DNA of 26,616 nucleotides from an uncultured bacterium (GTDB lineage: Bacteria; Patescibacteriota; Minisyncoccia; Phycocordibacterales; JAACPR01), in assembly GCA_966677695.1 (NCBI GenBank), contig CBKWTF010000001.1, positions 1 through 26,616 of the forward strand, written 5' to 3'. The translations under genes were made by a program, and so were the position numbers. Position 1 is the first letter of the stretch; each line of letters starts with the position of its first letter. Under the pieces are notes generated by a model, which made no database searches, was not told the origin of the DNA, and saw only the letters and a program-made list of their open reading frames with translations. Positions 1-24,400 of the stretch are shown here, one piece after another.

Positions 1-3000
1 GTGGCAGGAACCGCGCGCATCACCGGCGCTTCGGTCTTTGACTCGACACTTTCCGCGTCGGGTGCGGTGACGTTCTCCTCATCGCTCGGAGTGACCGGAC
101 ACGCGACCCTTGCAACGGCATCATCCACCAGCCTCACCGTTTCCGGAAACTCATATCTCGGCACGGTGCAGAGCGGAACGTGGAACGGAAGTACGATCTC
201 CTCGACGTATCTGGACAGCTCGCTTATTCTCTCGAGCGAGATTGATTCCTCGTCGGAGTTGGCGGGAATAGTGAGCAATGAGACGGGATCGGGATCTCTC
301 GTCTTCGGAACATCTCCGACCTTTACCACGAACGCGAACTTCTTCGGCGACACGATTTCTGACTTCACCGGTACGGGACTCGTGCTTTCCGGATCAACGC
401 TGACGGTCTCGACGTCGTCGCTTGGCATCACGAGCTCGCAGTGGACGACGAGCGGATCAGACGTCTACTACTCTGCAGGTAAGGTGAGCGTAGGAACGAC
501 GACTCCCGCTACGGGTGCGCAGGTGAGCATATACGGAAATTCCTCGATCGGTCTGCATGTAACCAGCGGGTCGGGAAGCGGAAACCTGTATGGTGTCTAT
601 GCGGTGGCACCGTATGCGGCTGAAGGAATTTCGACAGGCGTATATGGCGAGGGTGCCGACGTCGGAATTTCCGGCTACAGTGAGTTCGGCAACGGAGTTT
701 ACGGAGGAAGCGACAACGCGGCTGGAGTTTCTGGTTCTGGACTGTACGGTGTGTCCGGTAGCTCAAACAATGCGTCTGGCCGAGCGGGATATTTCAGTCA
801 GTCGAACGCAAGCGGCTACTCTCTCTATGCCACAGGAGGAATCAATTACATCCAGAACAGTCTCGGAATCGGAACTTCGACGCCCGCAGCAAAGCTGCAC
901 GTGGACGACGCGACGAACAGTACGCTGCGCGTGTCCTCGGGCTCGAGAAGAGTGTCGCTTTCTGCTGTCGCGGCAGATACCAACTACCTGTCATCGGTAG
1001 GTGCGTCGCTGCGCCTTCTCTCTTCTGACAACGACGTACAGGTTTGGTCAAACGGAACCGTACATACGTACTTCAATACATCAGGTCAGCTTCTTCTAGC
1101 GGGGACAAGCACCGCTGCATCGCCGGGAATTTCCACCTATGCATACAACACGTCAGGAATGTTTTTCCCGTCATCTGGCGTACTTGGCTTCTCGACGGCA
1201 TCGACCGAGCGGATGCGCATCGACTCGTCCGGCAACGTCGGAATCGGAACGACAACGCCGTCAAATAAGCTTGCTGTATCAAGCGATGGGCATACCGTTT
1301 TGAGCATAGACACGACCACGACCTCCAACTCAGCACGGCTTTACTTTACGGAGAAAGCCGCAGTAAAAAGTGCCATAATGAGTGCCGGTTCAGCCTTCGC
1401 GACGACCGACCGACAGAATGATCTTGAGCTGTTTTCGTATTCAGGGGATGTATCTTTTTGGCCGGGAGGTGCGCAGGCTGTTACCTTCAAGTCGGGCGGC
1501 AACGTCGGAATCGGAACGACAAGCCCTTCCAGCCTGCTACACGTGGTCGGCAGCGGACAGGTCCTAGCCGGATTCGAAAATTCTTCAACTGGTTCCGCGG
1601 TGGTTGAATTCAAAAATGTCGGGGGTGATTCATGGTCGTTGGGTACTTCTGGAGTTCTCGATTCAAACCCGAGTGTTTTTCATATCAATTACAACAGTAC
1701 AAGTTTTGCAGATTCAGACTTCGTGATTGATACTGCAGGCAACGTCGGAATCGGAACGACGACGCCGTCTGCGAAGCTTGATGTTGACGGTACGCTTATG
1801 GCTTCGGGGGCGGCCACGCTCAATGCCGGCTTGACCGTAAACGGGGGCAATATTTCAATTCCGAATACGGCATATAAGCTTCTCTTCAATAACCAGTCAT
1901 CGATCTGGGGCGGTACAAGCCTTGTGTTTGATGCGCTGGGGGGTTCGCACCAGTTCCGGAACAACTCGACGGAACTGATGAGGCTCACTTCGGCCGGCAA
2001 TCTCGGAATCGGAACGACAACTCCGGGATATGGGCTTACCGTAGCAGGAGACGCAAGCATAACAGGCGCGCTGCGCTTCGGCGGGAATGCGGGCACAAGC
2101 GGGTACATTCTCCAGACCACCGGCTCAAGTGCCCAGTGGGTCGCCACGTCGACGCTCGGCATCACGAGCTCGCAGTGGACGACGAGCGGTTCGAATATCT
2201 ATTACAATACTTCCGGAAACGTAGGCGTCGGAACAAGCTCTCCGGATGCGAAGCTTGCGGTATACGGCACGAGCGGTCTCGGAGGAACAGCGTTTCTGGT
2301 GAAGGGTGCTACTGGAATAGGGATATTCAACGGCACCGCCGGAGAAGGAAACGGCATCCTGATGACTGCAGGTAACGGAGGCGATTCAATTATGGGTACT
2401 GGCGGTGACGGAGGAAGCATCGTGCTCAATCCTGGGGCTGCGGGCGCGGGAGGGTCTGCGGACGGCTCAGACGGCAACATTATTCTCGCCAACCTTCAGG
2501 GAAGCGTCGGTATCGGCACGACTACGCCTGCGGACAAGCTGGTTGTTGCCGGCGACATCAACCTAACGGGCGCACTCAAGTTCTCAGGATCCGCGGGCAC
2601 ATCGGGCCAGATCCTTCAGACTACGGGGACTACGGCACAGTGGGTCGCCACGTCGACGCTCGGATTCGTCGGGGCAAACAATGACTACGGTACACAGGGA
2701 AGCGTAGTATTTCTTGGCGCAAACGGTGCGTTGACCGAAAACAATACGAACTTCTTCTGGGATAACTCTTCGCAAATTTTTAGGATTGGATCGACAGGGA
2801 CATCATCTCAACTTCGCGTGATAAGCAACGGAGGAATTGGAAGTCAGATATTTGACATGACCAACAACGTCGATGCAAACATTCAGGTTCGAGTGACGGC
2901 CTCGGGCGCGGGGGACAAGTACGGTATGATCACCTCGACCACGGGAACCGATATCGTTATTGGTCCAAACACGACTGAAAGAATGCGAATCACCAATGGT

Positions 3001-6000
3001 GGAAACGTCGGAATAGGTACGGATGCTCCGGGAAAGCTCCTAGACGTAAACGGAGACGTGAGGATCCGGGGCGACAACGCGACCCTTAACTTCTACCGGT
3101 CATCGTCGCCGACCGACATCGCGTATCTGCAGTATGACAATGCGAGCTCGACTTTCAATATTGCGGCGAACAACAAGAGCATCCGCTTCCTGAACGGAAT
3201 CGGGTTCACGGAGACCCTCGAGATCGACAGTGAGGGAAAGTTCGGTCTTAACCTGGATGCAACATCGTTAGGTGTGATGTTCGGATCGAAGGCGAACAGC
3301 GACGCTCGAATGGCCGGCTTGTTCAGGGCCAACAGCGCTACGCAGTCCGCCTCGATATTCGGGGTCCAGAACCATGACGGGTCGTCAAGTTACCTGACCG
3401 TTGATGCTGATGGAGATGTCGGTGTCGGCACGTCTACTCCGGACGTCAGGTTCCAGGTGTCTGGTGGCAGCATCAAGCTGGACAATAACCAGAAGCTCGT
3501 CTGGAGGAATGCTGCGGGAAGTGCGAACCAGAACGTCCTGCATCTGGATAGCGCAGACAACACCGTCCTTACGTCCGGAACCGGTGCCGTCGCCCTGTAT
3601 GACGGATCTGCGGCTCACCGGCTGGACGTGTATAACGGCACAACGGTAGCGAACCGTATCAACTCAAACGGAGCCTCCTATATCAACGGAGGAGACTTTG
3701 TTGTCGGAGGAACCTCAAGCCTCGGGCGCTTTACGGTATACGGTACGTCGACGTCCCAGATAAGCCAGGTCATTCGAATGGCAACAAGCCAGACCGCGGA
3801 TTCGTTTGTTGTCGAGGATTCCGCGGGTAACGACCTGCTCCGACACTGGACCGCATCCGGACTCGGTTCCGTGCTCAGGGTCATGTCCACCTCGACCAAG
3901 TACTTCCAGATGGAGTCATATGCTGCTGACAATAACTATTTCTCCGCGGCAGGCGCACCGTTTACCATCAGAACAAGCGGCGGTTCTTACAACCTGAACT
4001 TCTTTACGAATACGACAGACCAGCGCATGGCGATATCAGCATCGACCGGACACGTAATTGTCGGTTCGACCGCGACAAACGGAAATGCGCGAGTGCATTC
4101 CATCTGGAACGGTGGTCCGCAGCTGAGGTTGGGCGTCGACACATCAAATACCGCATACATGGACGCGACTGTCGGGTCGACGGGCGTCGCTACGTTTGAC
4201 GCGTCTGGAAGCGCTGCGGCATTCTCATTCAGTGACAACGTCGGGATCGGTACTACCAGTCCGTCCGCCAGGCTTGCCGTCACCGGCGCGTCCGGCTCGA
4301 CGGACAATGTTTTCGTCATAGCGTCATCGACGAACGCCATTCTGGCCTCGGTTTCGCCTGTCGGTATGATTACTGCCAACCAGAGTAACCTGGCTGTGAA
4401 AATCGGAGGTTTGCCGGGCTCCGAAGGCTCGTATTCAGGCGTATGGCTCGGCGGAGGAACGCCGTCCGCATCGAACTATGCCTTCCTGGGATCAACCCAG
4501 CAGACGTTCTTCAATGCACCCAATGCAGGAATTGCAGACATAGAGTTCAGGATCGGAAACACTACGGAATTCACCGTAGGTGCTAACGGTGCAGCCGTGG
4601 GCTTGTCAGGGAACACGGCCCCGACGTATCCGTTCCAGGTCAAGACCGCATCCAGCGACTTCATAGTAAATTCCTCGGGAAACGTTGGAATCGGAACGAC
4701 GACGCCGAGCGAGATGCTTACCGTAGCGGGCAACATCAACCTGACCGGGGCACTCAAGACCAATGGTAACGCCGGCACTTCGGGCTACCTGCTCCAGACT
4801 ACCGGCACCGGCGTGCAGTGGGTCGCCACGTCGACGCTCGGCATCGGAGGGGGTGGATCGAGTCAGTGGACGACGAGCGGAAGCGACATCTACTACAATG
4901 ATGGCGCTGCTTCGGTTGGAACAACGACTCCGTTTGCAAACTCGAAACTGACCGTTAGAAGTTCCACGTCCGGAACTTCGGACGCATATGCGGTTCGCGG
5001 ATATTCGTACCTCAGTGACGGAAGCTTTAGCGCCAGTTCCTACGGAGGATATTTCGTGGCTTCAGGTGCGGACCATGACCTGAGCGTGGGAGTGTACGGA
5101 CAGGGAGACTGGACTTCGAACTATGCATATGGAGTGTGGGGTAATTCGACGGCAGTTGGAGTATACGGATCGGGAGATGAAATAGGAGTTCAGGGAACCG
5201 GACTTACCGGAGTGTACGGAACGTCCAACAGCGCTTCGGGGAAAGCGGGGCACTTCAGTCAGTCAAACGCTGCCGGATATTCGCTGTATGCGTCAGGAGG
5301 AGTCAACTATATCCAGAACAATCTCGGTTTGGGAGTCACGTCTGCCAGCGCTCGGCTGCACGCCGTCTCGACTACGGAACAGTTGCGCGTCGGATACGAT
5401 ACGTCAAACTATCTAGCTATTACGGTTGCGTCGGATGGAAACGTGAACTTCACTGCCGTCGGTACTGATCCAGAATACGCGTTCATGAACAATATTGGTA
5501 TCAATACCGCATCGCCCGCAACGGAGCTCGATATCTACGGCTCAAACGGGGGTGCAGCAAACATATATCTGACGCGAAACGACTCAACAACCGTTACCGA
5601 TGACGAGTTGGGCGGAATCGCGTTCGGATCATCTGACGGACCGAGCCCGAATGCTGCAGCGATTAATGCGTACGCTTCGGAAAACTATTCATCCTCGAAC
5701 GCGGGATCGTACCTCGTGTTCCGTACCAGTCAGACCGGTGGAGACACCATCAGCGAGCGCATGAGGATTACTGATGCTGGAAGCGTCGGAATCGGAACGA
5801 CTTCTCCTCAGCGAAGGCTCCACGTGCGAACGACAGCAGACGAGGCGCCGGTTCGGTTCGAGGACTCAAGCGGATACTGTGAGATTAACCCTATATCAAC
5901 AACCTGGTCGTGTACGTCTGACGAGCGGCTAAAGGATAACATCCGGGACCTTGCATCGGTACAAATCGGATCAAGTACGGACGAGACCATTCTCGAGCGG

Positions 6001-7002
6001 GTGTCGAACCTTCGACCAGTAGCCTTTACCTGGAGAAGCGACGATGACCAGGTCGACCGAACAGGACTTATCGCACAGGAGGTCGAGAAGATTTTCCCTG
6101 ATCTTGTGAATACTGACGAGCGAGGATACAAGTCCGTATCATACGGAGGATTTACCGTGTACCTTATCGGCGCCCTGAAGGAACTGGTTGCTCGGCTGGA
6201 GAATGTTGAGAACGCGATTGCCAGCCTTTCGGGCGGCATGGTCTCAAACGTTCAGGCCGGGGTAGCGGGCATCTTCTCTCGTTTGACCGTGGGTTCTGCG
6301 GAAAAACCGACAGGAATCACGCTGTATGACGAAGAGACCGGAGAGCCGTACTGTCTCAAGGTCCGAAACGGGGAGACAACCACGACGCCGGGAGAGTGTA
6401 CAGTCGCTGACCTGACACCTGACAATACGCCGGTGCCACCGGTACAGACTGATCCTGGAACCACTACGCCTGACACGAACGGAGGAACAGGTGACGGAGG
6501 CGGGCAGCCGGCCGGAGATCAGGGAACGGCCGGTGACGCTGCAGGAGACGGGTCTGGTTCAGGAGACGACGCTTCGGCAGGAACCTCGGGCGGGGGAACG
6601 ACCGGAGACGGCTCGACCGGAGACGATGCTGGCTCATCGTCCGGAGGGGGAGCGGGATCAGGAACGACGGGTACGGGAACCGGTGATGCGACCGGAACAG
6701 GGGGCGGCACGACATCCGGCACGGGTAACGCTGCAGGAAGCGATCCTACTTCAGGAAGCGGGTCTTCGACGGGAACTTCAGCCGCAGGAACGGCCGGAAG
6801 CGGCGTCTCTCAGTCCGGAACCTCTGGGGACGGATCGACCGGAGGCGATGCTGGCTCATCGTCCGGAGAGGGAGCGGGGGACGGTTCGGGCGCTTCGACC
6901 GGGTCGGCCTCGGGCAGTGACGGAGGGGGATCTGGCGGAGATGCTGGCAGCTCCGGTTCGGGAACGTCGGGAGACTCTTCGGGCTCAGTAGGAGGGGTAT
7001 AG
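1..7002 (+). CDS. Giant phage-tail-fibre-like surface adhesin (5'-truncated, >=2333 aa) with G[IV]GT shaft repeats and a peptidase S74 intramolecular chaperone
   Basis: The ORF is open from base 1 to TAG at 7000-7002 and the first residues are already repeat-like, so the true start lies upstream. It has 12 xG[IV]GT motifs (e.g. GNVGIGTTTPS at 1231, 1738, 4678), GVYG-rich segments, QWVATSTLG linkers, and SDERLK...GLIAQEVEKIFPDLV...coiled coil near the C-terminus. Confidence 0.88.
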   Translation: MAGTARITGASVFDSTLSASGAVTFSSSLGVTGHATLATASSTSLTVSGNSYLGTVQSGTWNGSTISSTYLDSSLILSSEIDSSSELAGIVSNETGSGSLVFGTSPTFTTNANFFGDTISDFTGTGLVLSGSTLTVSTSSLGITSSQWTTSGSDVYYSAGKVSVGTTTPATGAQVSIYGNSSIGLHVTSGSGSGNLYGVYAVAPYAAEGISTGVYGEGADVGISGYSEFGNGVYGGSDNAAGVSGSGLYGVSGSSNNASGRAGYFSQSNASGYSLYATGGINYIQNSLGIGTSTPAAKLHVDDATNSTLRVSSGSRRVSLSAVAADTNYLSSVGASLRLLSSDNDVQVWSNGTVHTYFNTSGQLLLAGTSTAASPGISTYAYNTSGMFFPSSGVLGFSTASTERMRIDSSGNVGIGTTTPSNKLAVSSDGHTVLSIDTTTTSNSARLYFTEKAAVKSAIMSAGSAFATTDRQNDLELFSYSGDVSFWPGGAQAVTFKSGGNVGIGTTSPSSLLHVVGSGQVLAGFENSSTGSAVVEFKNVGGDSWSLGTSGVLDSNPSVFHINYNSTSFADSDFVIDTAGNVGIGTTTPSAKLDVDGTLMASGAATLNAGLTVNGGNISIPNTAYKLLFNNQSSIWGGTSLVFDALGGSHQFRNNSTELMRLTSAGNLGIGTTTPGYGLTVAGDASITGALRFGGNAGTSGYILQTTGSSAQWVATSTLGITSSQWTTSGSNIYYNTSGNVGVGTSSPDAKLAVYGTSGLGGTAFLVKGATGIGIFNGTAGEGNGILMTAGNGGDSIMGTGGDGGSIVLNPGAAGAGGSADGSDGNIILANLQGSVGIGTTTPADKLVVAGDINLTGALKFSGSAGTSGQILQTTGTTAQWVATSTLGFVGANNDYGTQGSVVFLGANGALTENNTNFFWDNSSQIFRIGSTGTSSQLRVISNGGIGSQIFDMTNNVDANIQVRVTASGAGDKYGMITSTTGTDIVIGPNTTERMRITNGGNVGIGTDAPGKLLDVNGDVRIRGDNATLNFYRSSSPTDIAYLQYDNASSTFNIAANNKSIRFLNGIGFTETLEIDSEGKFGLNLDATSLGVMFGSKANSDARMAGLFRANSATQSASIFGVQNHDGSSSYLTVDADGDVGVGTSTPDVRFQVSGGSIKLDNNQKLVWRNAAGSANQNVLHLDSADNTVLTSGTGAVALYDGSAAHRLDVYNGTTVANRINSNGASYINGGDFVVGGTSSLGRFTVYGTSTSQISQVIRMATSQTADSFVVEDSAGNDLLRHWTASGLGSVLRVMSTSTKYFQMESYAADNNYFSAAGAPFTIRTSGGSYNLNFFTNTTDQRMAISASTGHVIVGSTATNGNARVHSIWNGGPQLRLGVDTSNTAYMDATVGSTGVATFDASGSAAAFSFSDNVGIGTTSPSARLAVTGASGSTDNVFVIASSTNAILASVSPVGMITANQSNLAVKIGGLPGSEGSYSGVWLGGGTPSASNYAFLGSTQQTFFNAPNAGIADIEFRIGNTTEFTVGANGAAVGLSGNTAPTYPFQVKTASSDFIVNSSGNVGIGTTTPSEMLTVAGNINLTGALKTNGNAGTSGYLLQTTGTGVQWVATSTLGIGGGGSSQWTTSGSDIYYNDGAASVGTTTPFANSKLTVRSSTSGTSDAYAVRGYSYLSDGSFSASSYGGYFVASGADHDLSVGVYGQGDWTSNYAYGVWGNSTAVGVYGSGDEIGVQGTGLTGVYGTSNSASGKAGHFSQSNAAGYSLYASGGVNYIQNNLGLGVTSASARLHAVSTTEQLRVGYDTSNYLAITVASDGNVNFTAVGTDPEYAFMNNIGINTASPATELDIYGSNGGAANIYLTRNDSTTVTDDELGGIAFGSSDGPSPNAAAINAYASENYSSSNAGSYLVFRTSQTGGDTISERMRITDAGSVGIGTTSPQRRLHVRTTADEAPVRFEDSSGYCEINPISTTWSCTSDERLKDNIRDLASVQIGSSTDETILERVSNLRPVAFTWRSDDDQVDRTGLIAQEVEKIFPDLVNTDERGYKSVSYGGFTVYLIGALKELVARLENVENAIASLSGGMVSNVQAGVAGIFSRLTVGSAEKPTGITLYDEETGEPYCLKVRNGETTTTPGECTVADLTPDNTPVPPVQTDPGTTTPDTNGGTGDGGGQPAGDQGTAGDAAGDGSGSGDDASAGTSGGGTTGDGSTGDDAGSSSGGGAGSGTTGTGTGDATGTGGGTTSGTGNAAGSDPTSGSGSSTGTSAAGTAGSGVSQSGTSGDGSTGGDAGSSSGEGAGDGSGASTGSASGSDGGGSGGDAGSSGSGTSGDSSGSVGGV
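1231..1760 (+). repeat. Three identical 23-nt boxes GGCAACGTCGGAATCGGAACGAC (1231, 1498, 1738) encoding GNVGIGT, with near-copies at 1996, 4678 and 5779
   Basis: Direct sequence comparison; identity includes third codon positions. Confidence 0.93.
2134..4841 (+). repeat. Three identical 26-nt boxes CAGTGGGTCGCCACGTCGACGCTCGG (2134-2159, 2638-2663, 4816-4841) encoding QWVATSTLG
   Basis: Direct sequence comparison. Each copy ends a ~42-aa module L[TV]VAG[DN]xx[IL]TGAL[RK]xxGxAGTSGxxLQTTGxxxQWVATSTLG. Confidence 0.95.
5917..6228 (+). other. Peptidase S74 / intramolecular chaperone autoprocessing domain
   Basis: TWSCT-SDERLKDNI...LRPVAFTW...TGLIAQEVEKIFPDLV...YKSVSY...LIGALKELVARLENVE: the S-D-x-R-x-K cleavage motif, the GxIAQEV motif and a terminal coiled coil typical of the family. 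Confidence 0.9.
6481..6999 (+). repeat. Low-complexity Gly/Ser/Thr/Asp C-terminal tail with an internal 50-nt duplication (6607-6656 vs 6829-6878, 47/50 identical)
   Basis: The translation is dominated by G, S, T, D and A; DGSTG[DG]DAGSSSG[GE]GAG occurs twice. Confidence 0.9.
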
Positions 7003-12412: not shown

Positions 12413-15400
12413 ATGAAAAAATTACTAATCATCGGATCATCACTTGTGGCGCTGACCATCTTCGCGTTGGGCGGAAGTATTCCTGACTCAAGAAGTTCCG
12501 CATCGGTCACGGACCTGATACCCAAAAGAACCGAACCGGTATCGGACGGAATTCCGACGGAAATCCTGGCACAAAACGAGTCACCCCAAGAAGTCTCCGC
12601 ACAAACGGAGACATTCGTCGTTAATGGGGGGGCAACGACAAAGTCAGCAAGTTCCGACGAACTGGCTTTTGCGGGCTCACGTGATGTTGTTGATCACACT
12701 AACTCTTCGTCCGACTCTTCGGACTTCGTCGCTGTGGCGACGCCTGAGTCACGCGACTCGGGAGGCTCGTCTCTCAGATCTGCAGAGACCGCTGAACTTT
12801 CTGCATCTGCTCCGACACGGGTGCCGTCATACGGTCCGAACGGTACTCACTGGCCAAGCAACATTCCGACCCCGTTCATGTACGACACTACTGTGCCGAA
12901 CATCATCGAGGTTGAGCCGAACTGGACGGATCTTTCTAACGCAATCAAGAGCGTGACCGATCAGCAGGCAAACGAGGGAACGCTGATTCTCATCAAGTCC
13001 GGAACCGTAGAGAACCCGACGGTCATGAGGGGAAACGGAAACGGGTCAGGCTCTGACCCTGTGCTTGCCGAGATTGGTTCCGAAATCAGAAACAGCGAAT
13101 TTCCAAATCGGCCTCGAACGAAGCGAATCACCGTAGCGCCTTCGAACGGATACGGAACGCTGCGATGGGAGAACGGAGTGCACATCCGAAGAGTAAAGGG
13201 AGTGGCCTTTGCCGGAATTATCGCTGATCAGGGAATCAAGTCACGAGGAAACACGCAGTCTGCCTTTGCGTGGATTCTTGCGGAAAGCGGACAGACCGGT
13301 TTCTACGGTCATAAGGATCAGGATACCTACGGCATGGAAATCGTGGAGTATGTTGTTCCTGAGGCCCAGGCAAAAAGCGACGATACCGCGGACGTCTATT
13401 CTGTTGACGGAGTGGTTGAGGACTTTGACGTTGTGGGAAGCTACTTCGCTCCGCGGTTCTGGCTGTACAGCGACTGTACTCCGCAGGACTGTCCGCACAC
13501 CGATACCTTCCAGTACGCTACCGGAGGAGGGGGAAGTTACGGCGACATGTCTCTGAGCGACAGCGTATTTTTTGCATCAAACAACAGTGTAATTCAGACC
13601 GGTAACGTTATCGGTCTCGACATCGACCACTCGTTCATCGTTGGAGGAGACGAGTCGTTCAAGAGATATCCGATTACGGGAGGAAGTGACGTCTCGCGAG
13701 AGGGTAACTTCTCAGCCTTCAACGGATCCGGTCGAGGGTTCAATCTGACAAACTCATTCGTATTCGGAGAGATCAAGCTCAATAACCGAGACGCGTCGAG
13801 GGTGTGGAGTAACGTTTCAAATACCAAGATCGCCCAGCCAAGCGGAAAGTATGACGGAGGACTTAACGACCCGCTTTCCGGAGACTGGACATACGAGTCC
13901 GGCATGACGATGGCGAGTGCCGGCATTCCGGCAAAGCCGACGGAGGAGTACCTGCTTACAATCTGGGGCAAGGACATTACGCCTCGCACGGCTGCACCCG
14001 AGTTTAGCCCGAGCGGAACGAGCTTCAACGACTCAGTCACCGTCTCGCTTTCGAGCAACACGGCTGGCGCGGCCATATACTACACAACCAACGGAAGTAC
14101 CCCGACGACCTCTTCGACACGATATGCCGGACCATTTACGCTTTCTTCCTCGGCTACGGTAAAGGCAATCGCGGTATCGGCTGGTCTTGATAACAGCTTT
14201 GTGCAGTCAAAGACCTACACGATCGTACAGCCGGGTCTGCCGGTCATTACAAGGCAGCCTGCTGCCCAGTCGGCACCGGTCGGATCAAGTGCGACCTTCA
14301 CCGTCGAGGCTACCGGAAATCCAGCAGTCAGCGGATATCAGTGGAAGAAGAACGGCGCAAGCATCGCGGGCGCAACCAGCGCAAGCTACACCACGCCTGC
14401 CCTGACTTCTGCCGACAGCGGTTCCACATATACTGTCGTAGTGACGAACGCGCAGGGAAGCGTCGAGTCACAGGGCGCAGCGCTTCTTGTCGCTGACATG
14501 ACGTCTGACAGCTCATATCAGGAGCGATCAATCAGCTCGCTGTCAGGAACATTCACCTATGAGTTCAGCGTGACTCCGCTTGCGGCGAACATGAACGCCG
14601 TAACCGGACTTACGGGCAAGTCATCAGCCGTAAGCGACTATGGCGACTTCTCGATGATGATCCGAATGTACGACGGTCGATTCGACGCGCGAAACGGAGG
14701 CGCATACGGGTACAATGGCGCCCAGGAGGTTCGCTTCGAGGTAGGACGAACATACCAGGTCAAGTTCGTGGTCGACAGCTCGGCAAAGGAATATGACGTA
14801 TTTGTTGACGGCAAGCTCATCGGAGACAATTTTGATTTCCGAAATACAACCTATACAACGTTTAACAAGATCGCGTATCGAGCCGAAGTCGGATCGCATA
14901 CGATCGGACTGACAGGATCAACGGGAGGAGGGGAGGATACCCAGGCTCCGGTCGTCAATGCCGGACCGGACCAGACCATCACGCTTCCGACGAACAGCGT
15001 GACGCTCAACGCTGACGTCTCAGACAATCAGCCGGTCACGAATCTTGCAAACGTCTGGACGCGACAGAGCGGACCGGCCGCCGTTTCGTTCGGCAACGAG
15101 AACTCGATCGACACGACCGCGACATTTACGACCGCAGGAACATACGTGCTCAGGCTGACCTCAAACGACGGAGACAACACCGGATACGACGAGATTACGA
15201 TCGTCGTACGTCCGCAGGAGGGAGTGAACCAGGCTCCGGTCGTCAGCGCGGGTTCTGACGTTTCAATTACCACCGGAGGAACCGCGACACTCGACGGAAC
15301 CGTTACGGATGACGGACTTCCAGCCGGTTCAACGGTCGCCCAGACATGGAGCCGTGTGGAGGGTCCTGGAACGGTGACATTTGCCAATCCCTCCGCTCAG

Positions 15401-18400
15401 GATACGACCGCGACATTCTCTGCACCCGGTATCTACACTTTGCGCCTTACCGCAACCGACGGAACGCTGCAGGCGACTGACGACGTCGTCGTAAGCGTCG
15501 GAGGAGGAACGGGGGAGATCGTCCTTTCTGGAGAGCGAAAGCAGTGGCATAAGATTACTCTGACAATGGACGGTCCAAACACAAGCGAATCCGCATCGAC
15601 AAACCCATTCAGGGACTACCGTGTTGACGTAACCTTCACCCATCCCTCGTCAGGTACGACATATATAGTGCCCGGATATTATGCGGCTGACGGAAACGCT
15701 GCCGAATCTTCTGCGTCTGCAGGAAACAAGTGGCGCGCGCACTTTGCTCCGGACCGAACCGGAACGTGGAACTACTCAGTATCGTTCCGAACCGGATCAA
15801 ATGTCGCAATCGCAGCCAGCCGAACGGCCGGAACAAGCGCCGGATACTTTGACGGCCAGACCGGAAGTTTCTCGGTATCTGCTACCGACAAGTCAGGTAA
15901 GGACCTTCGAGGAAAGGGAAGACTCGTCTATGACGGAGAGCATTATCTTAAGTTTGCCGGAACAGGGGAGCGATTCATCAAGGCGGGAGTCGACTCACCG
16001 GAGAACCTTCTTGCCTATGAGGACTTTGACAATACGCCTCGAGTGGGTGGCGGAACGATCAAGAGCTATTCTGCCCATGCGGGAGACTATGCCTCAGGCG
16101 ATCCCGAGTGGCAGAACAACAAGGGAACCGAGCTTATCGGCGCAATCAACTACCTTTCAAGCGAGGGACTGAACGCGATATCGTTCCTGACATTCAACGT
16201 TGACGGTGACGACGGTAACGTATATCCGTTTACGGCTGAAAACGTAGAGGACCGATTCGACGTCTCAAAGCTCGACCAGTGGCAGATCGTATTCGACCAT
16301 GCGACCGCGAAGGGAATGTACCTGCACTTCAAGCTGATGGAGGCGGAGAACGACGGCAACCTGGTAACCGAGCAGTTCAAGCTGTATACCCGAGAGCTGA
16401 TCGCTCGATACGGGCACGAGCTTGCGCTCAACTGGAACTTGGGAGAGGAGAACGGACTGAGCGCTTCGATCTTGACCGATTGGGCTCAGTACCTCAAGGA
16501 TACGGATCCGTACCAGCATAACCGCGTACTTCATCTGCTCTGCGGTGACTTCGGCACATGTACAAGCAAGTACTTCGGCATGATGGGCAGCAACTCACAG
16601 CTCACCGGATTCTCACTCCAGGGAACTGACGCCTCAGATTTCCAGAATACGTTTGCACACGTGAAGGCGTTCGTTGACGAGTCAGCGGAAAGAGGAAAGA
16701 AGTGGGTGGTGGCGATGGACGAGCCGGGAGACTCATCAGCCGGAGTAAAGGCTGATACTGCAAGCAGCAACAACCAGGACATAGCGCGAAAGCACGGACT
16801 CTGGGGAACGATCATGGCCGGAGGACAGGGAGTCGAGTGGTACTTCGGATCCTCGGACGACATCGCGCTGCAGAACTTCAGGACCCGAGACAATTTCTAC
16901 GCATACAACAAGTACGCGGTCGACTTCCTGACCTCAAACGGACTTCCGGTAGCCGGACTGACGAACCAGAACTCGCTGATCAGCGGAGGAAGCGCGACGG
17001 GCAACAAGGTGCTTGCCAAGACGGGAGAAGTATATCTCGTGCAGCTTATCAACGGCGGAAACGCAACACTTAACCTGTCCGGCACGAGCGGAACGTTCAA
17101 CGTGAAGTGGCTCAACCCGCGGACAGGTGCGGTAACAACCGGTGCCAACGTGGCCGGAGGCTCCAGCGTAACCCTGAATGCGGCAGACTCAAATGACTGG
17201 GTCGTGCTGGTAAAGAGGGGAACAGGAACGGTTGATCCGGACCCGACCGGCGCATACCAGGAGAACGGAGGCGTAGTAGTCATCGAGGCAGAGAATACGG
17301 CGTCCGACCGGGAGGACGGTACCGACTTCTGGGCACTTCGAAGGCCGGGTGACTCACGATATGTCGCAAATGCGACAAACGACGCTCACCTTGAGTACCG
17401 AAGCAATACGTCGCTTGACGATACTCCGGGAGCGGTTCCTGTTACGTATACATTTAAAATTAACGAAGGAGGATATTACCAGCTGCATATCCGAGCGCAT
17501 AAGAATATTGAGGATGAGACACGGCCTGACCTGAACAATGATGCGTACATCAAGGTCAGCGGCGTAAACGGAAGCACCTACACCGCCGGTCCGAATGCGG
17601 GCAGCACGCACCTCAAGGACGCACCTCTCTCGATGCTTCAGAACTACACGAAGATTGCCGGAGGGTCAGACAGCACATGGGCATGGGCGGACCAGCTTGA
17701 CGCAGGAGGAGACAACAACAAGCGATGGCCGGTATACGGATTCCAGACCGGAGGAACCTATACGCTTACGATGTCAGGACGATCGCGAGGATTCGCGCCG
17801 GACCGATTCGTCTTCCGAAAGGTCGATGAGATTCCGATGCCGCTCGCCAAGAACTATGCGATACCAGAGTCGTCAAAGGTTGAAGGGGGTACAAATCCGA
17901 ACATTACGCCTATCACGAACGGATCAACCCAGGTGCGAACACTTGAATATGTGAATGTTCGAACCGTGCCGTCGGTAAGCGGAAATACGCCGCTTGGACG
18001 CATGCCGTTCGGATCACAGGGAACAATTATGGAAGGACCGGTCGTCTCGTCTGACAACCTGGTATGGTGGCGCGTAAACTTCGCCGCAACCTCAACTGAC
18101 GGATGGACCGGAGGCGACAACCTCGAGGTTATTCCCGGAACAGGAGGAGGGGATGAGAACCTGGCTCCTACCGTAAACGCCGGTGCCGACCAGGCCATCA
18201 CGCTTCCGACAAATTCGGTGACTCTTACGGGGACCGCTACGGATTCTGACGGAACCGTTTCGTCACGACAGTGGACAAAGGTAAGCGGAGGAACTGCCAA
18301 CCTTTCAGGAGCTACGACAAACACACTGAGCGTATCCGGTCTTGAGGAGGGGACATACGTATTCCGATTCACGGCAACCGACAATGAGGGGGCATCATCG

Positions 18401-21400
18401 TCCGACGAGATGACGGTAACGGTGAGCCGGCAGGTGGCAGTCGGGTCTGCGGTATACGTTCGGGCTGGAGCGGCCGGAAACGGAAGCAGCTGGACAAACG
18501 CGCTCGGATCAATTCCTCCATCGGCAAGTCTTGAGCGAGGAATGACATACTATATTGCTGACGGATCATACGGGTCATATCTCTTCGATAAGGCCAAGGA
18601 TGGAACTAAGCTTGTTACTTTCAAGAAGGCGACAGTCGCAGATCACGGAACTAACGAAGGATGGCAGTCTTCATACGGAGACGGTCAGGCAGTATTTACC
18701 TCGTTCAAGATCGATGGAACTGGATACTTCACGCTTGACGGAAACATCGGATCGGACAAGTTTGCGGAAAAGGGAATTCTTATCAGTTCGCAGAGCCGAC
18801 AGACAGCCTTTCGAATTGACGACTCTGACTACGTAACCATCGAGGGAATCGAGGTCGACGCCAACTACGACGATCGAATCTCGTGTAACGTTGCAGAGGT
18901 TATCGGGCAGGACATTTCGGACGGTGGATACAACACGACAAATATCACCATTAAGAAGAGCCACTTCCGAAACGGAGGAGACGATGGATTGGTGCTCTAC
19001 AACGTAAAGGACCTCATCTTCGAGGACAACGAAATATCGGATCTCTTCGGATACAATATTGAGGCGCATCCAACTGACGGTTGTGGAAACGGACACAGTG
19101 ACGGAATCGAGATCAAGACAGTTACGAATGCGGTCTTCAACCGAAACTACTTCCACTCAATCGACAAGACGTCGGCATTTCTTCCAAGTAACTGGACGTC
19201 GAACTACGGAACCGCATCAAGCGATGCCGAGGAGCGGAACATTACCGTAACGAACAACATCTTCCACACACCTAACGCATCCGGTGCCGTGTACGTGCAG
19301 CACATGAAGGACGCGAAGTTCTTCCATAACACGATCTCACAGGGACAGTATTCCGGAGTGATCATGGAAACAAAGGGAGATTACAAGATCGTCGAGAACT
19401 TCGACATAGCAAACAACATCATCTCCGCATTTGCAATCAAGGATGAGGTTGGAAACAGCCAACTCGACATCGACTACAATCTGCTTATCGGACCGGAGGT
19501 GCACTCGTTCAACCCGCACGTACCGTCGACAAACGATATTAACCTCGGTTGGGAGATGAACAAGGCCTTCCCTGCAAACCTATACGCTGGATCGGACGTG
19601 AACGCCCACTACGTACCGGGTAAGGGTCATCCGAACTGGGGACCTGAGGCATCGGCCTTTACGCCTGCTGCGACAAACCCTGGAATCAACAAGGGAAAGA
19701 CAGGACTTCCAACAAGCGTGACGATCGGCGGAGTAACGGTGGACATCTCGAAGGACTTCTTCGGAAACTCACGATCAGGAGCGCCTGACATGGGAGCCAT
19801 CGAGTTCTCGGGATCATCACAGGCAAACAGGCTCGTTGCGGTAACGGTCTTCGGGGCAGGAGACGTGACAGGTAATGGAATCTCATGCGGAGCAGACTGT
19901 TCAGAAGTGTACTCGTCAGGCGAGAGCGTGACTCTTACCGCAACGCCTCGACCAAATGCGACGTTCGCCGGATGGAGTGGAGCATGTGCCGGAACAGGAA
20001 CGTGTACCGTGACGGTAAGCGACTTCAAGAACGTCATCGCGACATTCAACGGAGGAATCGATCCGGACGCATGGCAGGTCGGAGATCGCGTTGAGGCGAC
20101 AAAGACCGTCCGAGTTCGATCGGGAGCCGGAACAGGATTTGCAACCGTTATCCCGGATCAGAACGAGGGTGCACAGGGAACCGTTACAGGAGGACCTGCC
20201 TCGGGATCAGGGTTGACATGGTACAAGATCAAGTATGACGGATATACAACCGAGGGATGGACAGGAGCAGACGGACTCGTGCGACTTTCGGGAGGAGGGG
20301 AGCCTGACAGCACGGCACCTACAGTTCCTGGAAACCTTTCAGAGGTATCCGTGACAAATACGTCAGCGTCGATCTCATGGACTGCGTCGACTGATGCGGT
20401 CGGAGTGACAGGGTATGAGATCCTTCGAAACGGATCAGTGGTAGGAAACTCAAATACCAACTCATACACGCTTACAGGTCTTGCAAAGGGAACTACCTAC
20501 ACGATTACGGTAAAGGCGTTCGACGCTGCGGGCAACAAGTCTGCCGCATCTGCAGCTTTGACCGTAACAACGTCAGACTCCGTCGACTCAATTGCGCCAA
20601 GCGTACCTGCTGGCCTCACAAAGGGAACAGTGACAAACACGTCAGCGTCGATCTCATGGACTGCGTCGACTGACAACGTCGAGGTAACTGGTTACGACAT
20701 CTACCGTGACGGTGCGCTTGTCGGATCATCGGCAGGTACTTCGTACTCAGAATCCGGATTGGCGAAGGCTACGACATATAGTTACACCGTCAAGGCAAAG
20801 GATGCTGCAGGAAACGTTTCTGCGCCATCGGCCATCCTGTCGGTAACGACCACGAACATCGAGTCGAAGATTCCAGTTCGAGTGAAGTCGTTCGGACCGA
20901 ACGGTACTCACTGGCCGGACAAGATCGATACGCCATTCATGTACGATGACACGGTCACGTCGATTGTCATCAACCCAAGCTGGACAGAGCTTCAGGCGGC
21001 GCTTGATAGCGTAACCAAGGCACAGGCAGATGCGGGACTTCGAATCCTTATCAAGCCGGGAACGATGGCAGGAAAGGGAATTACCGGAGGTTCTCAGAAG
21101 ATGATAGCCGACACCGGATCAGCAGCGTGGGACCAGCGAGTGGTGGTGGCTCCAAGAGACGGTTACGGAACCGTAACGTGGACCGGAGGAGTGCGAATCG
21201 AAAATGTCGAAGGGGTTGCCTTCGCTGGACTTAAGGTTGAAGAGCCGGGAATCCGATTCAAGGGTAATAATCGATCTGCTCTTGCGTGGATCAATATCTC
21301 AGGCGGAAACGCGACGCCTACCCAACTTCTCGTAGGGGCATCAAACGAGAAGTCTGTAGCTGATGTCGAAATTGTCGAGGTGGTAATGAGGGATTCCGAG

Positions 21401-24400
21401 GCGACAGACTCTGACGCTTCTGCGGTTCAGGGACTAAGCAGCGGGTCGAACTCAATCAAGCGAGTGACATATGCCGGGTCATATCTTGCACCTAAGTTCG
21501 TGACGGGAAGCGGACATACTGACACGCTTCAGTTTGCGACCGGAAACTACCAGGATCAGGTAGGCTCAAGCATCGTCGATACCGCGCTCTTCGGATCAAG
21601 CAACGCGACGCTCCAGGTAGGAAGTACAAACGGTCTCAAGATCGACCACTCGTTCCTTGTCGCCGGTGAGACATCGCTCTCACGATACCCGGTTCTTCCC
21701 GGGGGAGACGGGCCGGTAGAGGTAGTGTTCAACGGAGGTTCGACCGGAATGACGGCATACGATTCAATCTTTGTCGGAGGAATGGGAGCGCCGAAGTGGA
21801 CCGAGGTTCGAAACACTCGAACGGCTAAGGCAGGCAATACCCCATCACAAGGTGAGTGGACCGTAGACCCGAGCCTTTACGATATGAGGGACGATGCGGC
21901 AGGATACAAGAATCTCGTACCGTATCCTACTGACGCGTATCTTGCGCAGATCTGGGCAAAGGACGGAAATCCCGTTACATACCGAACCCTTACGATTAAC
22001 AAGACAGGATCAGGATCGGTAACAGGAGCGACATCAGGGGAGTCGTTCATGGACGGATCGAGCGTGATTCTTACTGCGGTGCCCGCAACAGGAGCGACAT
22101 TCACAGGATGGAGCGGGGCATGTACCGGAACGAACGCGACGTGTACGGTAGTCATGTCGGCAGACAAAACCGTTTCCGCATCGTTCTCTGCGGTTGCGAA
22201 TCCCGAGTATGCCATCACTATCGCAAAGACCGGAACAGGAACGGGAACGGTTTCAGGCGCTACGTCTGGACAGCAGTTCACATCAGGAACCGTCGTGACA
22301 CTGACAGCGACTCCTGCAAGCGGATCTACGTTCGCGGGATGGAGCGGGTCATGTGCGGGAACCAACGCGACATGTGCCGTGACTATGGATGCGGCTAAGT
22401 CCGTGACGGCAACATTCAACATCGCCACGGTCGCACAGTACACCCTGACAGTCTCAAAGAGCGGAACGGGAACAGGAACTGTATCTGGAAGCGCAGCCTC
22501 ACAGGCGTACAACTCGGGAACTGTGGTTACCCTTACGGCAACTCCAGACGCTTCATCAAACTTCACAGGATGGAGCGGGGCATGTACCGGAACGAACGCG
22601 ACGTGTCAGGTCACAATGAGCTCGAACAAGACGGTGACAGCAACGTTCGCAGCAAAGCCGGCAGACCAGGTCGCTACGCCGACATTCTCACCGACTTCGA
22701 CTTCGTCTGCGGACCCGATTACGGTGACGATCAGTTCGGCGACAACAGGCGCGACAATCCGATACACAACTAACGGAAGCACGCCTACGACAAGTTCGGC
22801 TCAGTACACAGGACCGATCACCGTCTCTTCATCACAGACAATCAAGGCGATCGCTACAAAGTCAGGAATGACAAACAGCGCCGTAGGGGAGGCGACATAT
22901 GCGATCGTTCCTGTCACGGGCGGAGCGGGTCCGTTCACCTCAAGCCTCAGCTGGCTGAACAAGTCCTTCCTTGAGCTGTCCGGAACAGCGAACCGAACCG
23001 GAATCTTCACGGTAACGTTCAACGCAACTCCGCTGGACAACGACATCGACGTCGTGACCGCGCTTACGGACGGAGCGGCTGACGGATTCAACGATCTTGC
23101 GGCAACGATCCGATTCAACAAGCTCGACCCTTCATACATCGATACGGTAAACGGGGGATCATACGATGTCGATGATGAGATCGTGTACGAGGAGGACGAA
23201 ACATATCCTGTTCGAATGGTCGTCGACGTTCCGAACCGACATTACTCCGTATGGGTAACGGTAAATGGGGTTGAGAGGCAGATTGCTCGAGATTACGCAT
23301 TCCGAACGGGAAGTGGCGTAACCCAGGTATCAAAGCTTACCAACTTCTCTATCCGAGCGGTTACCGGAACGCACCGAATTACGAACGTGGTGATCGGTCA
23401 GGACGGAGGATCGTCTGACACACAGGCTCCGAGCACGCCAGTCGGATTGTCGTCATCGAACGTCACAAGCTCATCGGCGACTGTCTCATGGAACGCGTCA
23501 AGCGATAACGTCGGCGTAACAGGATACGAGGTGCTGCGGGGAACAAGTGCCGGCAACTTGTCGACGGTCACGACCGTTACAGGAACCTCGTTCGTAGATA
23601 GTGCACTGTCTGCCAATACGACATACTACTACGCTGTGAAGGCAAAGGATGCTGCAGGCAATGTGTCAGCCGCGTCAAATGCGCTTACTGTCCGAACCAA
23701 CAACGTTGCGGACATTCAGGCGCCTACTGTGCCTACAAACGCGCAGACATCTCGAGAGTCAACAACGAGCGTCCTTATAGAGTGGACCTCGTCGAGCGAT
23801 AACGTGGGAGTGTCGTACTACAACATCTACCGAGACGGATCCGTCGTGGCTACAAGTCCGTACCCTGCATACGAGGACTCAGGACTGACACCGAATACCA
23901 CATATGTATACCGGGTTTCCGCAGTTGACGGAGCCCAGAACGAATCCGGGCTGTCCTCAGCGGTAAGCACGCGGACACTAAGCGATGTCGACGACATTGC
24001 GCCTGAGATCCGATCGTTCTCTGTGCCTTCGACCTCAAATTCCCTTACTGTCGCTGTCAACTCATTTGCGGCAAGCGACAACGGAGAAACGGTAGAGTAC
24101 TACATCACGGAGAGCGAAGCGGTTCCTTCGGGACCATCCGTTGCGTGGTCATACGCCGCGCCGACAAGCTATACGATCAAGAGTGGTATCGGAAGCGGAA
24201 CGTATACGCTTTATGCATGGGCACGTGATGCGGCGGGAAATATCTCAACACCGCGAATTGCCACAGTTGTCGTGACGCTTCCGGATACGATCCTTCCAGA
24301 GGTGGTCATCACGGCTCCCGCAGCAAACTCACTGGTATCAGGAACGTCGGTTGCGATTAGCGCGACCGCCACTGACAACGTCAGGGTGGCTTCGGTCCAG

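What the first reader, a model, noticed from the sequence alone, without database searches (positions are those of the whole stretch)
424..4880. DNA-identical junction boxes between divergent cassettes suggest a recombination-shuffled mosaic adhesin
Seen: the module boundaries are identical at nucleotide level, including wobble positions, while the enclosed cassettes are unrelated. The boxes are CAGTGGGTCGCCACGTCGACGCTCGG x3 (2134, 2638, 4816), GGCATCACGAGCTCGCAGTGGACGACGAGCGG x2 (424-455, 2158-2189; 17-nt core again at 4864) and GGCAACGTCGGAATCGGAACGAC x3 (1231, 1498, 1738). Other copies of the same peptide (2215, 2500, 3001, 3412, 4234) use different codons, so protein constraint alone does not explain the identity. 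Inference: the boxes are anchors for homologous recombination or gene conversion that swap, delete or duplicate cassettes, diversifying fibre length and specificity without a dedicated recombinase or DGR.
Basis: partly seen in the sequence, partly recalled or inferred. Interest (0 to 1): 0.7.

Follow-up and report, generated by a model that had tools for sequence, protein, structure and literature searches.

The report
Recombination boxes in a fibre gene
Short stretches of identical DNA that recur inside a giant surface-fibre gene of an ultra-small (Patescibacteria) bacterium are real and are kept alike by copying between repeats. They also mark where a related bacterium's version of the gene has lost, gained or swapped whole modules, which is how phage tail-fibre genes are already known to evolve.

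Summary
A synonymous-codon shuffle never reproduces them (0 of 500). They are islands of silent-site identity: 65 of 76 identical-residue codons match inside the boxes, against 26.5 expected. Outside the boxes the same module pairs are at the random level (103 of 262, against 90 expected).

Codon preference is not the cause. The same peptide is encoded differently in the paralogue on contig C38 and in the syntenic orthologue (L049/P0249). Each lineage has its own box haplotypes, which is the signature of concerted evolution by gene conversion.

The orthologue has one Box B where the window has two, and it lacks the whole 1734-nt block between them. Seven of eight block boundaries between the two genes lie within 8 residues of a box.

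The gene encodes a secreted protein of about 2543 aa with a Peptidase_S74 domain, related to Bdellovibrio MAT fibres. The boxes encode conserved linker and capping-loop motifs.

The cassettes are not all unrelated: several are old paralogues.

This scan has reported the same phenomenon before in fibre genes of other genomes. It parallels conserved-motif recombination in T-even phage adhesins, so this is a new member of a known kind.

The parts
1..7002 (+). 3' 2333 codons of a fibre gene of about 2543 codons. The first ~210 codons, including the start and a signal peptide, lie at the 3' end of contig C16.
   Evidence: ORF list. Peptidase_S74 at 51.2 bits. C16 and C1 overlap by 68 nt with 1 mismatch. 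The join is confirmed by collinearity with L049.
424..455 (+). Box B copy 1 (GITSSQWTTSG). It is preceded by a degenerate box A (405-423) and forms the left edge of the block missing from the orthologue.
   Evidence: (family D8).
456..2189 (+). 1734-nt block (aa 153-724: X1, three Z modules, Y1, box A1, box B2) that has no collinear counterpart in the orthologue. It is bounded by the two identical Box B copies.
   Evidence: blastn and tblastn against L049. Three-way alignment A1. Sliding-window map against P0249.
1231..1253 (+). Box C copy 1 (GNVGIGTT), a capping-loop type motif of Z module 1.
1498..1520 (+). Box C copy 2. It is identical to copy 1 over 26 nt (1230-1255 against 1497-1522).
1738..1760 (+). 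Box C copy 3.
2134..2159 (+). Box A copy 1 (QWVATSTLG), the end of module Y1. It abuts Box B copy 2.
2158..2189 (+). Box B copy 2. Collinear homology with the orthologue resumes here.
2497..2520 (+). GSVGIGT motif (aa 834). Homology with the orthologue stops just after it.
2638..2663 (+). Box A copy 2, the end of module Y2. A cassette unique to this gene follows (aa 891-1120).
3412..3432 (+). GDVGVGT motif (aa 1138). The conserved block III (70-93% aa identity to the orthologue) starts here.
4678..4700 (+). Box C variant (2 silent differences, aa 1560). Conserved block IV starts here.
4816..4841 (+). Box A copy 3, the end of module Y3.
4864..4880 (+). Box B 17-nt core, copy 3. It follows a GGGG spacer, and conserved block IV ends here.
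5779..5801 (+). Box C variant (GSVGIGT, aa 1927). In relatives P0004 and P0002 the two sides of this motif are separated by a cassette array of about 600-800 aa.
5917..6108 (+). Peptidase_S74 intramolecular chaperone domain with an SDERLK motif.
   Evidence: The SDxxxK motif is as described in PMC10769870.
6268..6999 (+). Gly/Ser/Thr/Asp-rich low-complexity tail with its own imperfect repeats.
   Evidence: families D7, D10.

Best explanation
The gene encodes a secreted, probably trimeric, beta-helical surface fibre built from serial modules and ending in a Peptidase_S74 chaperone. It belongs to the phage tail-fibre / Bdellovibrio MAT-fibre superfamily.

Each module is bounded by a short, structurally obligatory peptide motif:
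- GNVGIGTTTP, the capping-loop type motif (box C);
- QWVATSTLGI, the end of a Y module (box A);
- SSQWTTSGSxIYY, the start of the next module (box B).

Because these peptides cannot change, their DNA stays similar enough for non-allelic pairing between copies. Pairing would be RecA-mediated (RecA is present, and MutS/MutL that would suppress mismatched pairing were not found) and/or by template switching.

Two outcomes follow.
1. Short-patch gene conversion homogenises the motif DNA into identical 23-32-nt boxes, while everything between them drifts to silent-site saturation. This concerted evolution is shown by comparison.
2. Crossovers between copies, or with other fibre genes, delete, insert or replace the modules in between, always in frame. 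One 1734-nt block is bounded by the two Box B copies, and several cassettes are replaced at motifs.

That the identical boxes cause the exchange, rather than only resulting from it, is inferred. That exchange changes binding specificity is also inferred.
For: 1. Excess exact repeats over a synonymous-codon shuffle: 0 of 500 shuffles reach the observed counts.
2. Silent-site identity is confined to the boxes: 65/76 matching codons against 26.5 expected inside, 103/262 against 90 expected outside.
3. Codon preference is excluded.
   - The peptide QWVATSTLG occurs twice in the paralogue on C38 of the same genome, with different codons.
   - Box tripeptide encodings are used at only 2-25% in 683 other ORFs, mostly close to (up to about 3-fold above) the codon-usage expectation.
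4. Concerted evolution.
   - The orthologue's two box A copies differ from each other at 7 nt and from the window's positional orthologue at 8 nt of 30, while the window's three copies are identical.
   - The orthologue has its own identical 30-nt box C pair with a different codon haplotype.
   - Box B copies share AGT-GGG in the orthologue but AGC-GGN in the window.
5. Breakpoints.
   - L049 has one A'/B box where the window has two. Its left flank matches the window's copy 1 flank, and its right flank matches the copy 2 flank.
   - 7 of 8 block boundaries against P0249 lie within 8 aa of a box, although only 23% of the protein is within 12 aa of one.
6. Orthology: the locus order is 470-aa gene, fibre gene, rpsL, rpsG, and the upstream DNA also matches.
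7. Same pattern in other family pairs. P0002 and P0004 are syntenic with 87% flank identity, yet their central 1.9-2.4 kb is unrelated and both breakpoints lie in GN[VI]GIGT. P0095, P0103 and P0113 behave likewise.
8. All box pairs are in the same frame.
9. RecA is present; MutS_V, MutL and RVT_1 were not found in a 96%-complete genome.
10. Fibre identity: S74 domain, PHROG tail-fibre families, and PDB 8OND Bd2133 at E = 2.5e-13.
Against:
- Only one orthologous lineage was found, so insertion cannot be told from deletion and the timing of events is unknown.
- No recently duplicated cassette is present, so ongoing shuffling in this strain is not shown.
- In some relatives of similar G+C (P0002, P0004) motif copies are not DNA-identical, yet breakpoints still fall at the motif. 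Perfect identity is therefore not required, and breakpoint clustering could partly reflect selection for foldable joins.
- Boundaries were mapped at about 10-aa resolution.
- The cassette order in a short-read MAG contig could not be verified with reads.
Confidence: 0.65

Rival explanations
1. Selection filter only. Rearrangements arise by illegitimate or microhomology events anywhere, and only joins at module boundaries give a foldable fibre, so breakpoints appear at the motifs. On this view the identical boxes are a passive by-product of occasional conversion and are not used as anchors.
For: In P0002 and P0004 the motif copies within each gene are not identical, and the allelic motifs at the breakpoints are only about 72-85% identical, yet both breakpoints lie in the motif. 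The motifs are structural capping loops and domain ends, so joins elsewhere would probably be deleterious.
Against: The missing block is bounded by two perfect 32-nt direct repeats (57 of 67 nt over the wider element), which is the classical footprint of homology-dependent deletion or insertion. Conversion itself shows that these sites do pair. The two views are not exclusive.
Confidence: 0.22
2. Nucleotide-level or codon-level selection on the boxes themselves (translational accuracy or pausing at key residues, an mRNA structure, or a DNA-binding site) keeps the same codons in every copy.
For: The boxes use mostly the commonest codons of the gene. One encoding of GNVGIGT is more than 100-fold commoner in viral contigs than a composition-matched synonymous permutation, so something acts at DNA level across the family. 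Boxes A and B each contain an 8-nt palindrome.
Against: The same peptides in the C38 paralogue and in the orthologue use other codons. Adjacent equally conserved residues (AGTSG, LQTTG, TTTP) are silent-saturated. Genome-wide tripeptide encodings mostly lie within 2-fold of codon usage (one is about 3-fold above it), and neither palindrome is rare: both occur several-fold above a base-composition expectation. Haplotypes are lineage-specific.
Confidence: 0.07
3. Assembly artefact. The contig is a chimera joined at shared short k-mers, so the cassette order, and in particular the 456-2189 block, is not real.
For: The genome is a 91-contig MAG. The gene itself is broken across C16 and C1, with a 1-mismatch overlap. 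Reads could not be inspected.
Against: Assembly cannot create identical boxes. The repeats are at most 32 nt with unique flanks, which is shorter than the usual final k-mers. Several junctions (N-terminal block to A'/B, Y3-A-GGGG-B-X, motif to S74 block) are reproduced in independently assembled orthologues from other samples.
Confidence: 0.05
4. Chance plus codon bias acting on a repeated peptide.
For: Box C's 23-mer also occurs in 13 unrelated genomes and 7 viral contigs, as expected for a very abundant peptide motif.
Against: 0 of 500 synonymous shuffles reach the observed repeat counts. From the codon frequencies, my calculation gives roughly 2e-7 for three copies agreeing at all seven degenerate codons of box A.
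Confidence: 0.01

Closest known systems
Conserved-motif recombination in T-even phage distal tail-fibre and adhesin genes (gp37 His boxes, gp38 glycine-rich motifs; Tetart et al. 1996 and 1998, as cited in Trojet et al. 2011, PMC3157838)
   Same: Short, highly conserved motifs separate hypervariable segments of a receptor-binding fibre. Chimeras between relatives have their exchange points in or near those motifs. No dedicated recombinase is involved.
   Different: This is a chromosomal gene of a cellular organism next to rpsL, not a phage gene. The modules are 80-600 aa fibre segments rather than loops of one small domain. The motifs are unrelated in sequence. Concerted evolution of the motif DNA within one gene is shown here, whereas experimental recombinants are not.
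Mosaic adhesive trimer (MAT) fibres of Bdellovibrio bacteriovorus (Caulton et al. 2024, PMC10769870; PDB 8OND, 8OJN, 8OML)
   Same: Direct sequence homology of the Z modules (E = 2.5e-13). An S74 chaperone with an SDxxxK motif. A recurring capping-loop motif resembling VG.G...P...L. A conserved N-terminal region with varied distal parts, and a surface fibre of a bacterium that attaches to other cells.
   Different: The paper describes mosaicism at protein and structure level and suggests 'tip swapping'. In the passages I read it does not analyse DNA-identical boxes or breakpoints. The present protein is about 2.5 times longer and carries about 260 aa after the S74 domain.
Concerted evolution of intragenic repeats in bacterial surface proteins by gene conversion or unequal crossing-over (general knowledge, not checked in papers here)
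   Same: Paralogous repeats are more alike within a lineage than orthologous ones, and repeat-bounded in-frame indels change protein length.
   Different: Here homogenisation is confined to 23-32 nt motif cores. The long segments between them are saturated or unrelated, so whole repeat units are not being homogenised.
Programmed cassette systems: Neisseria pilE/pilS, Borrelia vlsE, Mycoplasma MgPa, and shufflons or Min/Cin invertible tail-fibre segments (general knowledge)
   Same: Conserved short sequences flank variable cassettes of a surface or receptor-binding protein.
   Different: No silent cassette archive was found: the boxes occur only in this gene and there is a single paralogue. All copies are direct, with no inverted copies. 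No reverse transcriptase was found. Nothing shows high-frequency programmed switching.

Membership tests
Peptidase_S74 tail-fibre-like / MAT fibre superfamily | C-terminal S74 intramolecular chaperone domain above the Pfam threshold | tested here: met
   PF13884 at 51.2 bits against a cut-off of 22, aa 1973-2036.
Peptidase_S74 tail-fibre-like / MAT fibre superfamily | SDxxxK catalytic motif | tested here: met
   SDERLK at the start of the domain (translation). The motif is as defined in PMC10769870.
Peptidase_S74 tail-fibre-like / MAT fibre superfamily | Sequence homology of fibre modules to solved MAT or phage fibre proteins | tested here: met
   8OND Bd2133 at E = 2.5e-13 and 8OJN at 2.6e-6. 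PHROG tail-fibre families at 4e-31 and 2e-29.
Peptidase_S74 tail-fibre-like / MAT fibre superfamily | N-terminal signal peptide (secreted or surface protein) | tested here: inconclusive
   The start on C16 reads as a basic n-region, a hydrophobic stretch and AYA before D. This was judged by eye only; no predictor was available.
Peptidase_S74 tail-fibre-like / MAT fibre superfamily | Trimerisation and autoproteolytic release of the chaperone | not testable with these tools
   Needs expression and SDS-PAGE, or a solved structure. No complex prediction was run.
Conserved-motif modular recombination (T-even adhesin type) | Conserved short motifs separate variable segments | tested here: met
Conserved-motif modular recombination (T-even adhesin type) | Mosaic boundaries between relatives fall in or next to the motifs | tested here: met
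   Box B indel. 7 of 8 boundaries lie within 8 aa of a box. Other family pairs show the same.
Conserved-motif modular recombination (T-even adhesin type) | Recombinants observed experimentally, with changed specificity | not testable with these tools
Concerted evolution by gene conversion | Paralogous copies within a lineage are more alike than orthologous copies between lineages | tested here: met
   Box A, B and C haplotypes in the window against L049 and against the C38 paralogue.
Concerted evolution by gene conversion | Identity tract with diverged flanks, in excess of a synonymous null | tested here: met
Diversity-generating retroelement | Reverse transcriptase and a template/variable repeat pair | tested here: not met
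   No RVT_1 in the 96%-complete genome. The repeats are identical, not adenine-mutated.
Shufflon / invertible tail-fibre segment | Inverted repeats flanking invertible segments | tested here: not met
   All box copies are on the + strand. A recombinase gene was not specifically searched for.
Silent-cassette antigenic variation (pilS or vls type) | Archive of promoterless cassettes sharing the boxes elsewhere in the genome | tested here: not met
   The boxes occur only in this gene. tblastn finds only the C16 continuation and one full-length paralogue on C38. The assembly is fragmented, so absence is not proven.

The most novel reading that the evidence does not exclude
The boxes are not merely local conversion products. 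They may be local dialects of a DNA-level 'universal adaptor' shared by fibre genes of phages, bacteria and archaea. One encoding of GNVGIGT occurs in at least 120 viral contigs, against 1 for a composition-matched synonymous permutation. The window's box C differs from that encoding at two silent sites. On this reading the motif DNA is maintained by second-order selection for recombinational compatibility, so that fibre modules form a cross-domain exchangeable pool from which a host-dependent CPR bacterium retools its attachment fibre.
Probability: 0.15. Interest if true: 0.75.

Novelty: new member of a known kind. Interest (0 to 1): 0.4.

Why it matters
Patescibacteria live attached to other cells, and how they recognise hosts is largely unknown. 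This locus shows that one of their largest surface proteins, a relative of the prey-recognition fibres of Bdellovibrio, evolves as a set of in-frame exchangeable modules joined at short DNA boxes. The organism has RecA but no detectable mismatch repair.

That gives a concrete and testable route to rapid change in fibre length and probably specificity, without a dedicated diversification machine. It also gives a practical rule for annotating these giant genes and for distrusting short-read assemblies of them. The principle itself is already known from phage adhesins and has been seen repeatedly in this scan, so the value lies in extending and documenting it rather than in discovering it.

Tried and rejected
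- Box A in 60 relatives' genomes: none.
- Box A in JGI metagenome contigs: none.
- Boxes A and B in viral contigs: none.
- Degenerate box A pattern in viral contigs: 1 hit.
- Near-identical strains: none among 5.8 billion proteins, whether full-length or fragments.
- N-terminal block in metagenome contigs and in 32 same-family genomes: no further orthologue.
- DNA for the intact orthologue P0249 was not retrievable.
- blastn of the gene against all fetched loci showed no recent inter-genome DNA exchange.
- Codon-context bias was tested genome-wide and rejected as the explanation.
- NCBIfam gave no hit.
- Rejected after testing: chance or codon bias, DGR, shufflon, silent-cassette archive.
- Not run: structure or complex prediction, because it would not bear on the DNA question.

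Full report
**What is there.**
The window is the whole contig C1 of a 658-kb, 91-contig, 96%-complete genome. ORF 1..7002 runs off the 5' end.

Its start lies on contig C16. C16's last 68 nt overlap the first 68 nt of C1 with one mismatch, and C16 supplies an ATG followed by a signal-peptide-like N-terminus. Collinearity with an orthologous contig confirms the join. The full protein is about 2543 aa.

The protein carries:
- a Peptidase_S74 chaperone domain with an SDERLK motif;
- a Gly/Ser-rich tail;
- PHROG tail-fibre matches;
- modules homologous to the solved Bdellovibrio MAT fibre Bd2133 (8OND, E = 2.5e-13).

Caulton et al. (PMC10769870) describe those fibres as surface-displayed trimeric beta-helices with recurring capping loops. 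More than 980 database proteins match at E <= 1e-10. Those that carry a source name include Patescibacteria 'tail fiber domain-containing' proteins. All match only in patches, 59-64% identity over 3-10% of the query.

**The observation.**
All boxes are exact at the stated coordinates. They are in the same frame and the same orientation. A synonymous-codon shuffle of the gene never approaches the observed number of exact repeats.

Self-comparison shows that the boxes lie in conserved motifs of old paralogous modules:
- box C is GNVGIGTT, at the start of Z and Y modules;
- box A is QWVATSTLG, ending Y modules;
- box B is (GIT)SSQWTTSG, starting the next module.

A and B together form a composite linker of about 67 nt, present three times, plus one copy of A alone.

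Codon-level alignments show that silent sites at conserved residues outside the boxes are at the random expectation (103 of 262 against 90 expected). Inside the boxes 65 of 76 codons are the same, against 26.5 expected. The boxes are therefore genuine islands of silent-site identity. However, the cassettes are not all 'unrelated'.

**Why codon preference is not the cause.**
- The paralogue on contig C38 of the same genome encodes QWVATSTLG twice, with codons that differ from each other and from box A.
- In 683 other ORFs of the genome the box tripeptide encodings occur at 2-25%, mostly within 2-fold of the codon-usage expectation and at most about 3-fold above it.
- Relatives of similar G+C (P0002, P0004) show no within-gene identity at the motif.

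**The orthologue.**
A 'shorter proteins' search found P0122. Its contig L049 matches C16's upstream gene and the N-terminal block of the fibre (84% aa identity). P0249, a member of the same protein cluster (2149 aa, from another sample), is the intact form. It sits between the same 470-aa gene and rpsL-rpsG, so the locus is orthologous.

Three results follow.

1. *Concerted evolution.*
   - L049's two box A copies differ from each other at 7 of 30 nt.
   - They differ from the window's positional orthologue at 8 of 30 nt, whereas the window's three copies are identical.
   - L049 has its own identical 30-nt box C pair with a different codon haplotype.
   - Box B copies share AGT-GGG in L049 and AGC-GGN in the window.
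   - Paralogues alike within a lineage and orthologues diverged between lineages is the classical signature of gene conversion.

2. *A repeat-bounded indel.* L049 has one A'/B box. Left of it the sequence follows the window's copy 1 flank. Right of it the sequence follows the window's copy 2 flank: a 421-nt HSP at 70% identity, sharing copy 2's indels. The 1734 nt between the window's two identical 32-nt Box B copies have no collinear counterpart.

3. *A mosaic map.* Conserved blocks at 70-95% aa identity alternate with unrelated cassettes.
   - 7 of 8 boundaries, mapped at about 10-aa resolution, lie within 8 aa of box A, box B or a GxVGxGT motif.
   - Only 23% of the protein lies within 12 aa of such a motif, so the rough binomial probability is 2e-4.
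   - The eighth boundary falls where the orthologue has a GSLGIGT motif and the window has a degenerate one.

**The family.**
- P0002 and P0004 are syntenic genes downstream of type IV pilus genes, with 87% identical flanks. They share the first 1475 nt and the last ~900 nt, but their central 1.9-2.4 kb is unrelated. Both breakpoints lie in GN[VI]GIGT.
- Relative to P0004, the window gene joins the two motif-flanking blocks directly at its GSVGIGT copy (5779).
- P0095, P0103 and P0113 behave likewise.
- Several homologues in related genomes also carry DNA-identical GNVGIGT boxes with random flanks.

**Mechanism.**
RecA is present. MutS, MutL and reverse transcriptase were not found. No box copies are inverted, and none lie elsewhere in the genome.

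The simplest reading is general homologous (homeologous) recombination and/or template switching between non-allelic motif copies. This gives short-patch conversion, which produces the boxes, and occasional crossovers, which produce module loss, gain or replacement. The box sizes of 23-32 nt are near the minimal length for efficient RecA-dependent exchange in E. coli; that figure is from my own knowledge and was not checked.

What is not shown: the direction and age of the events, activity in the present population, and any effect on specificity. The main rival is that selection for foldable joins, rather than homology, places the breakpoints. The two explanations are compatible.

**Context and novelty.**
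Earlier follow-ups in this scan reported the same kind of box in fibre genes of other genomes, and a widely shared GC-rich encoding of GNVGIGT. I tested the latter. The window's box C, which differs from the common encoding at two silent sites, is found in 7 viral contigs and in 13 genomes of many phyla. Boxes A and B have no such pool.

The closest published principle is recombination at conserved motifs in T-even adhesins (Trojet 2011, citing Tetart 1996 and 1998). A search of the held library found no paper describing this for Patescibacteria fibres. Verdict: a real feature, a well-supported interpretation, and a new member of a known kind.

Noticed in passing
Viral contigs; compare window 1231-1253: The encoding GGC AAC GTC GGC ATC GGG ACG AC of GNVGIGT occurs in at least 120 viral contigs, with up to 15 copies per contig. 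A permutation with the same codons in another order occurs in 1. The window's own variant occurs in 7. This DNA-level conservation across viruses and cells cannot be explained by site-independent codon usage.
   Followed up: partly
L049:4876-5137 (orthologue contig): The orthologous fibre gene is split into two overlapping frames (1173 + 894 aa) in L049, but is intact (2149 aa, P0249) in another sample. This is a frameshift near a Y module: sequencing error, pseudogene or on/off variation.
   Followed up: no
own genome, whole: RecA is present (C61), but MutS (PF00488) and MutL (PF01119) were not found in a 96%-complete genome. This is relevant to recombination between diverged repeats.
   Followed up: partly
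L045:1-2911, L046:1-2911, L047:9220-10332: Related fibre genes (P0004, P0002) lie directly downstream of type IV pilus genes (MshEN/T2SSE ATPases, response regulator, T2SSF). P0003 lies near pilM. This may be a functional link between these fibres and pili in Patescibacteria.
   Followed up: no
window 721-900 (aa 241-300) against 5191-5325 (aa 1731-1775): The core of module X1, which lies inside the block missing from the orthologue, is 77-87% identical to the orthologue's single X module. That is closer than the collinear X2 core (53-77%), although the whole modules are about equidistant (47-54%). This suggests patchwise exchange inside modules too.
   Followed up: partly
window 1-68 and the end of contig C16: The fibre gene is broken between two contigs that overlap by 68 nt with one mismatch (T/C at window position 14). 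This may be a strain polymorphism or a graph branch at a repeat-rich gene.
   Followed up: partly
window 12413-26332: The unrelated 4639-aa multidomain ORF (PKD, fn3, Big, PG_binding and others) also has more exact DNA repeats than a synonymous shuffle allows, for example a 45-nt pair at gene positions 9688 and 10150. Intragenic homogenisation is therefore not limited to the fibre gene.
   Followed up: partly
window 2147-2154 and 430-437 / 2164-2171: Boxes A and B each contain an 8-nt palindrome (CGTCGACG, CGAGCTCG). Genome-wide these occur 43 and 83 times, against about 13.5 expected from base composition. They are therefore not avoided, and the excess is probably a codon-usage effect.
   Followed up: partly
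window 6109-6999: About 300 aa follow the S74 domain: a Cys-containing segment, a Pro/Thr linker and a G/S/T/D low-complexity tail with imperfect 62-81-nt repeats. The orthologue conserves the first part (up to aa ~2140) but not the tail.
   Followed up: no
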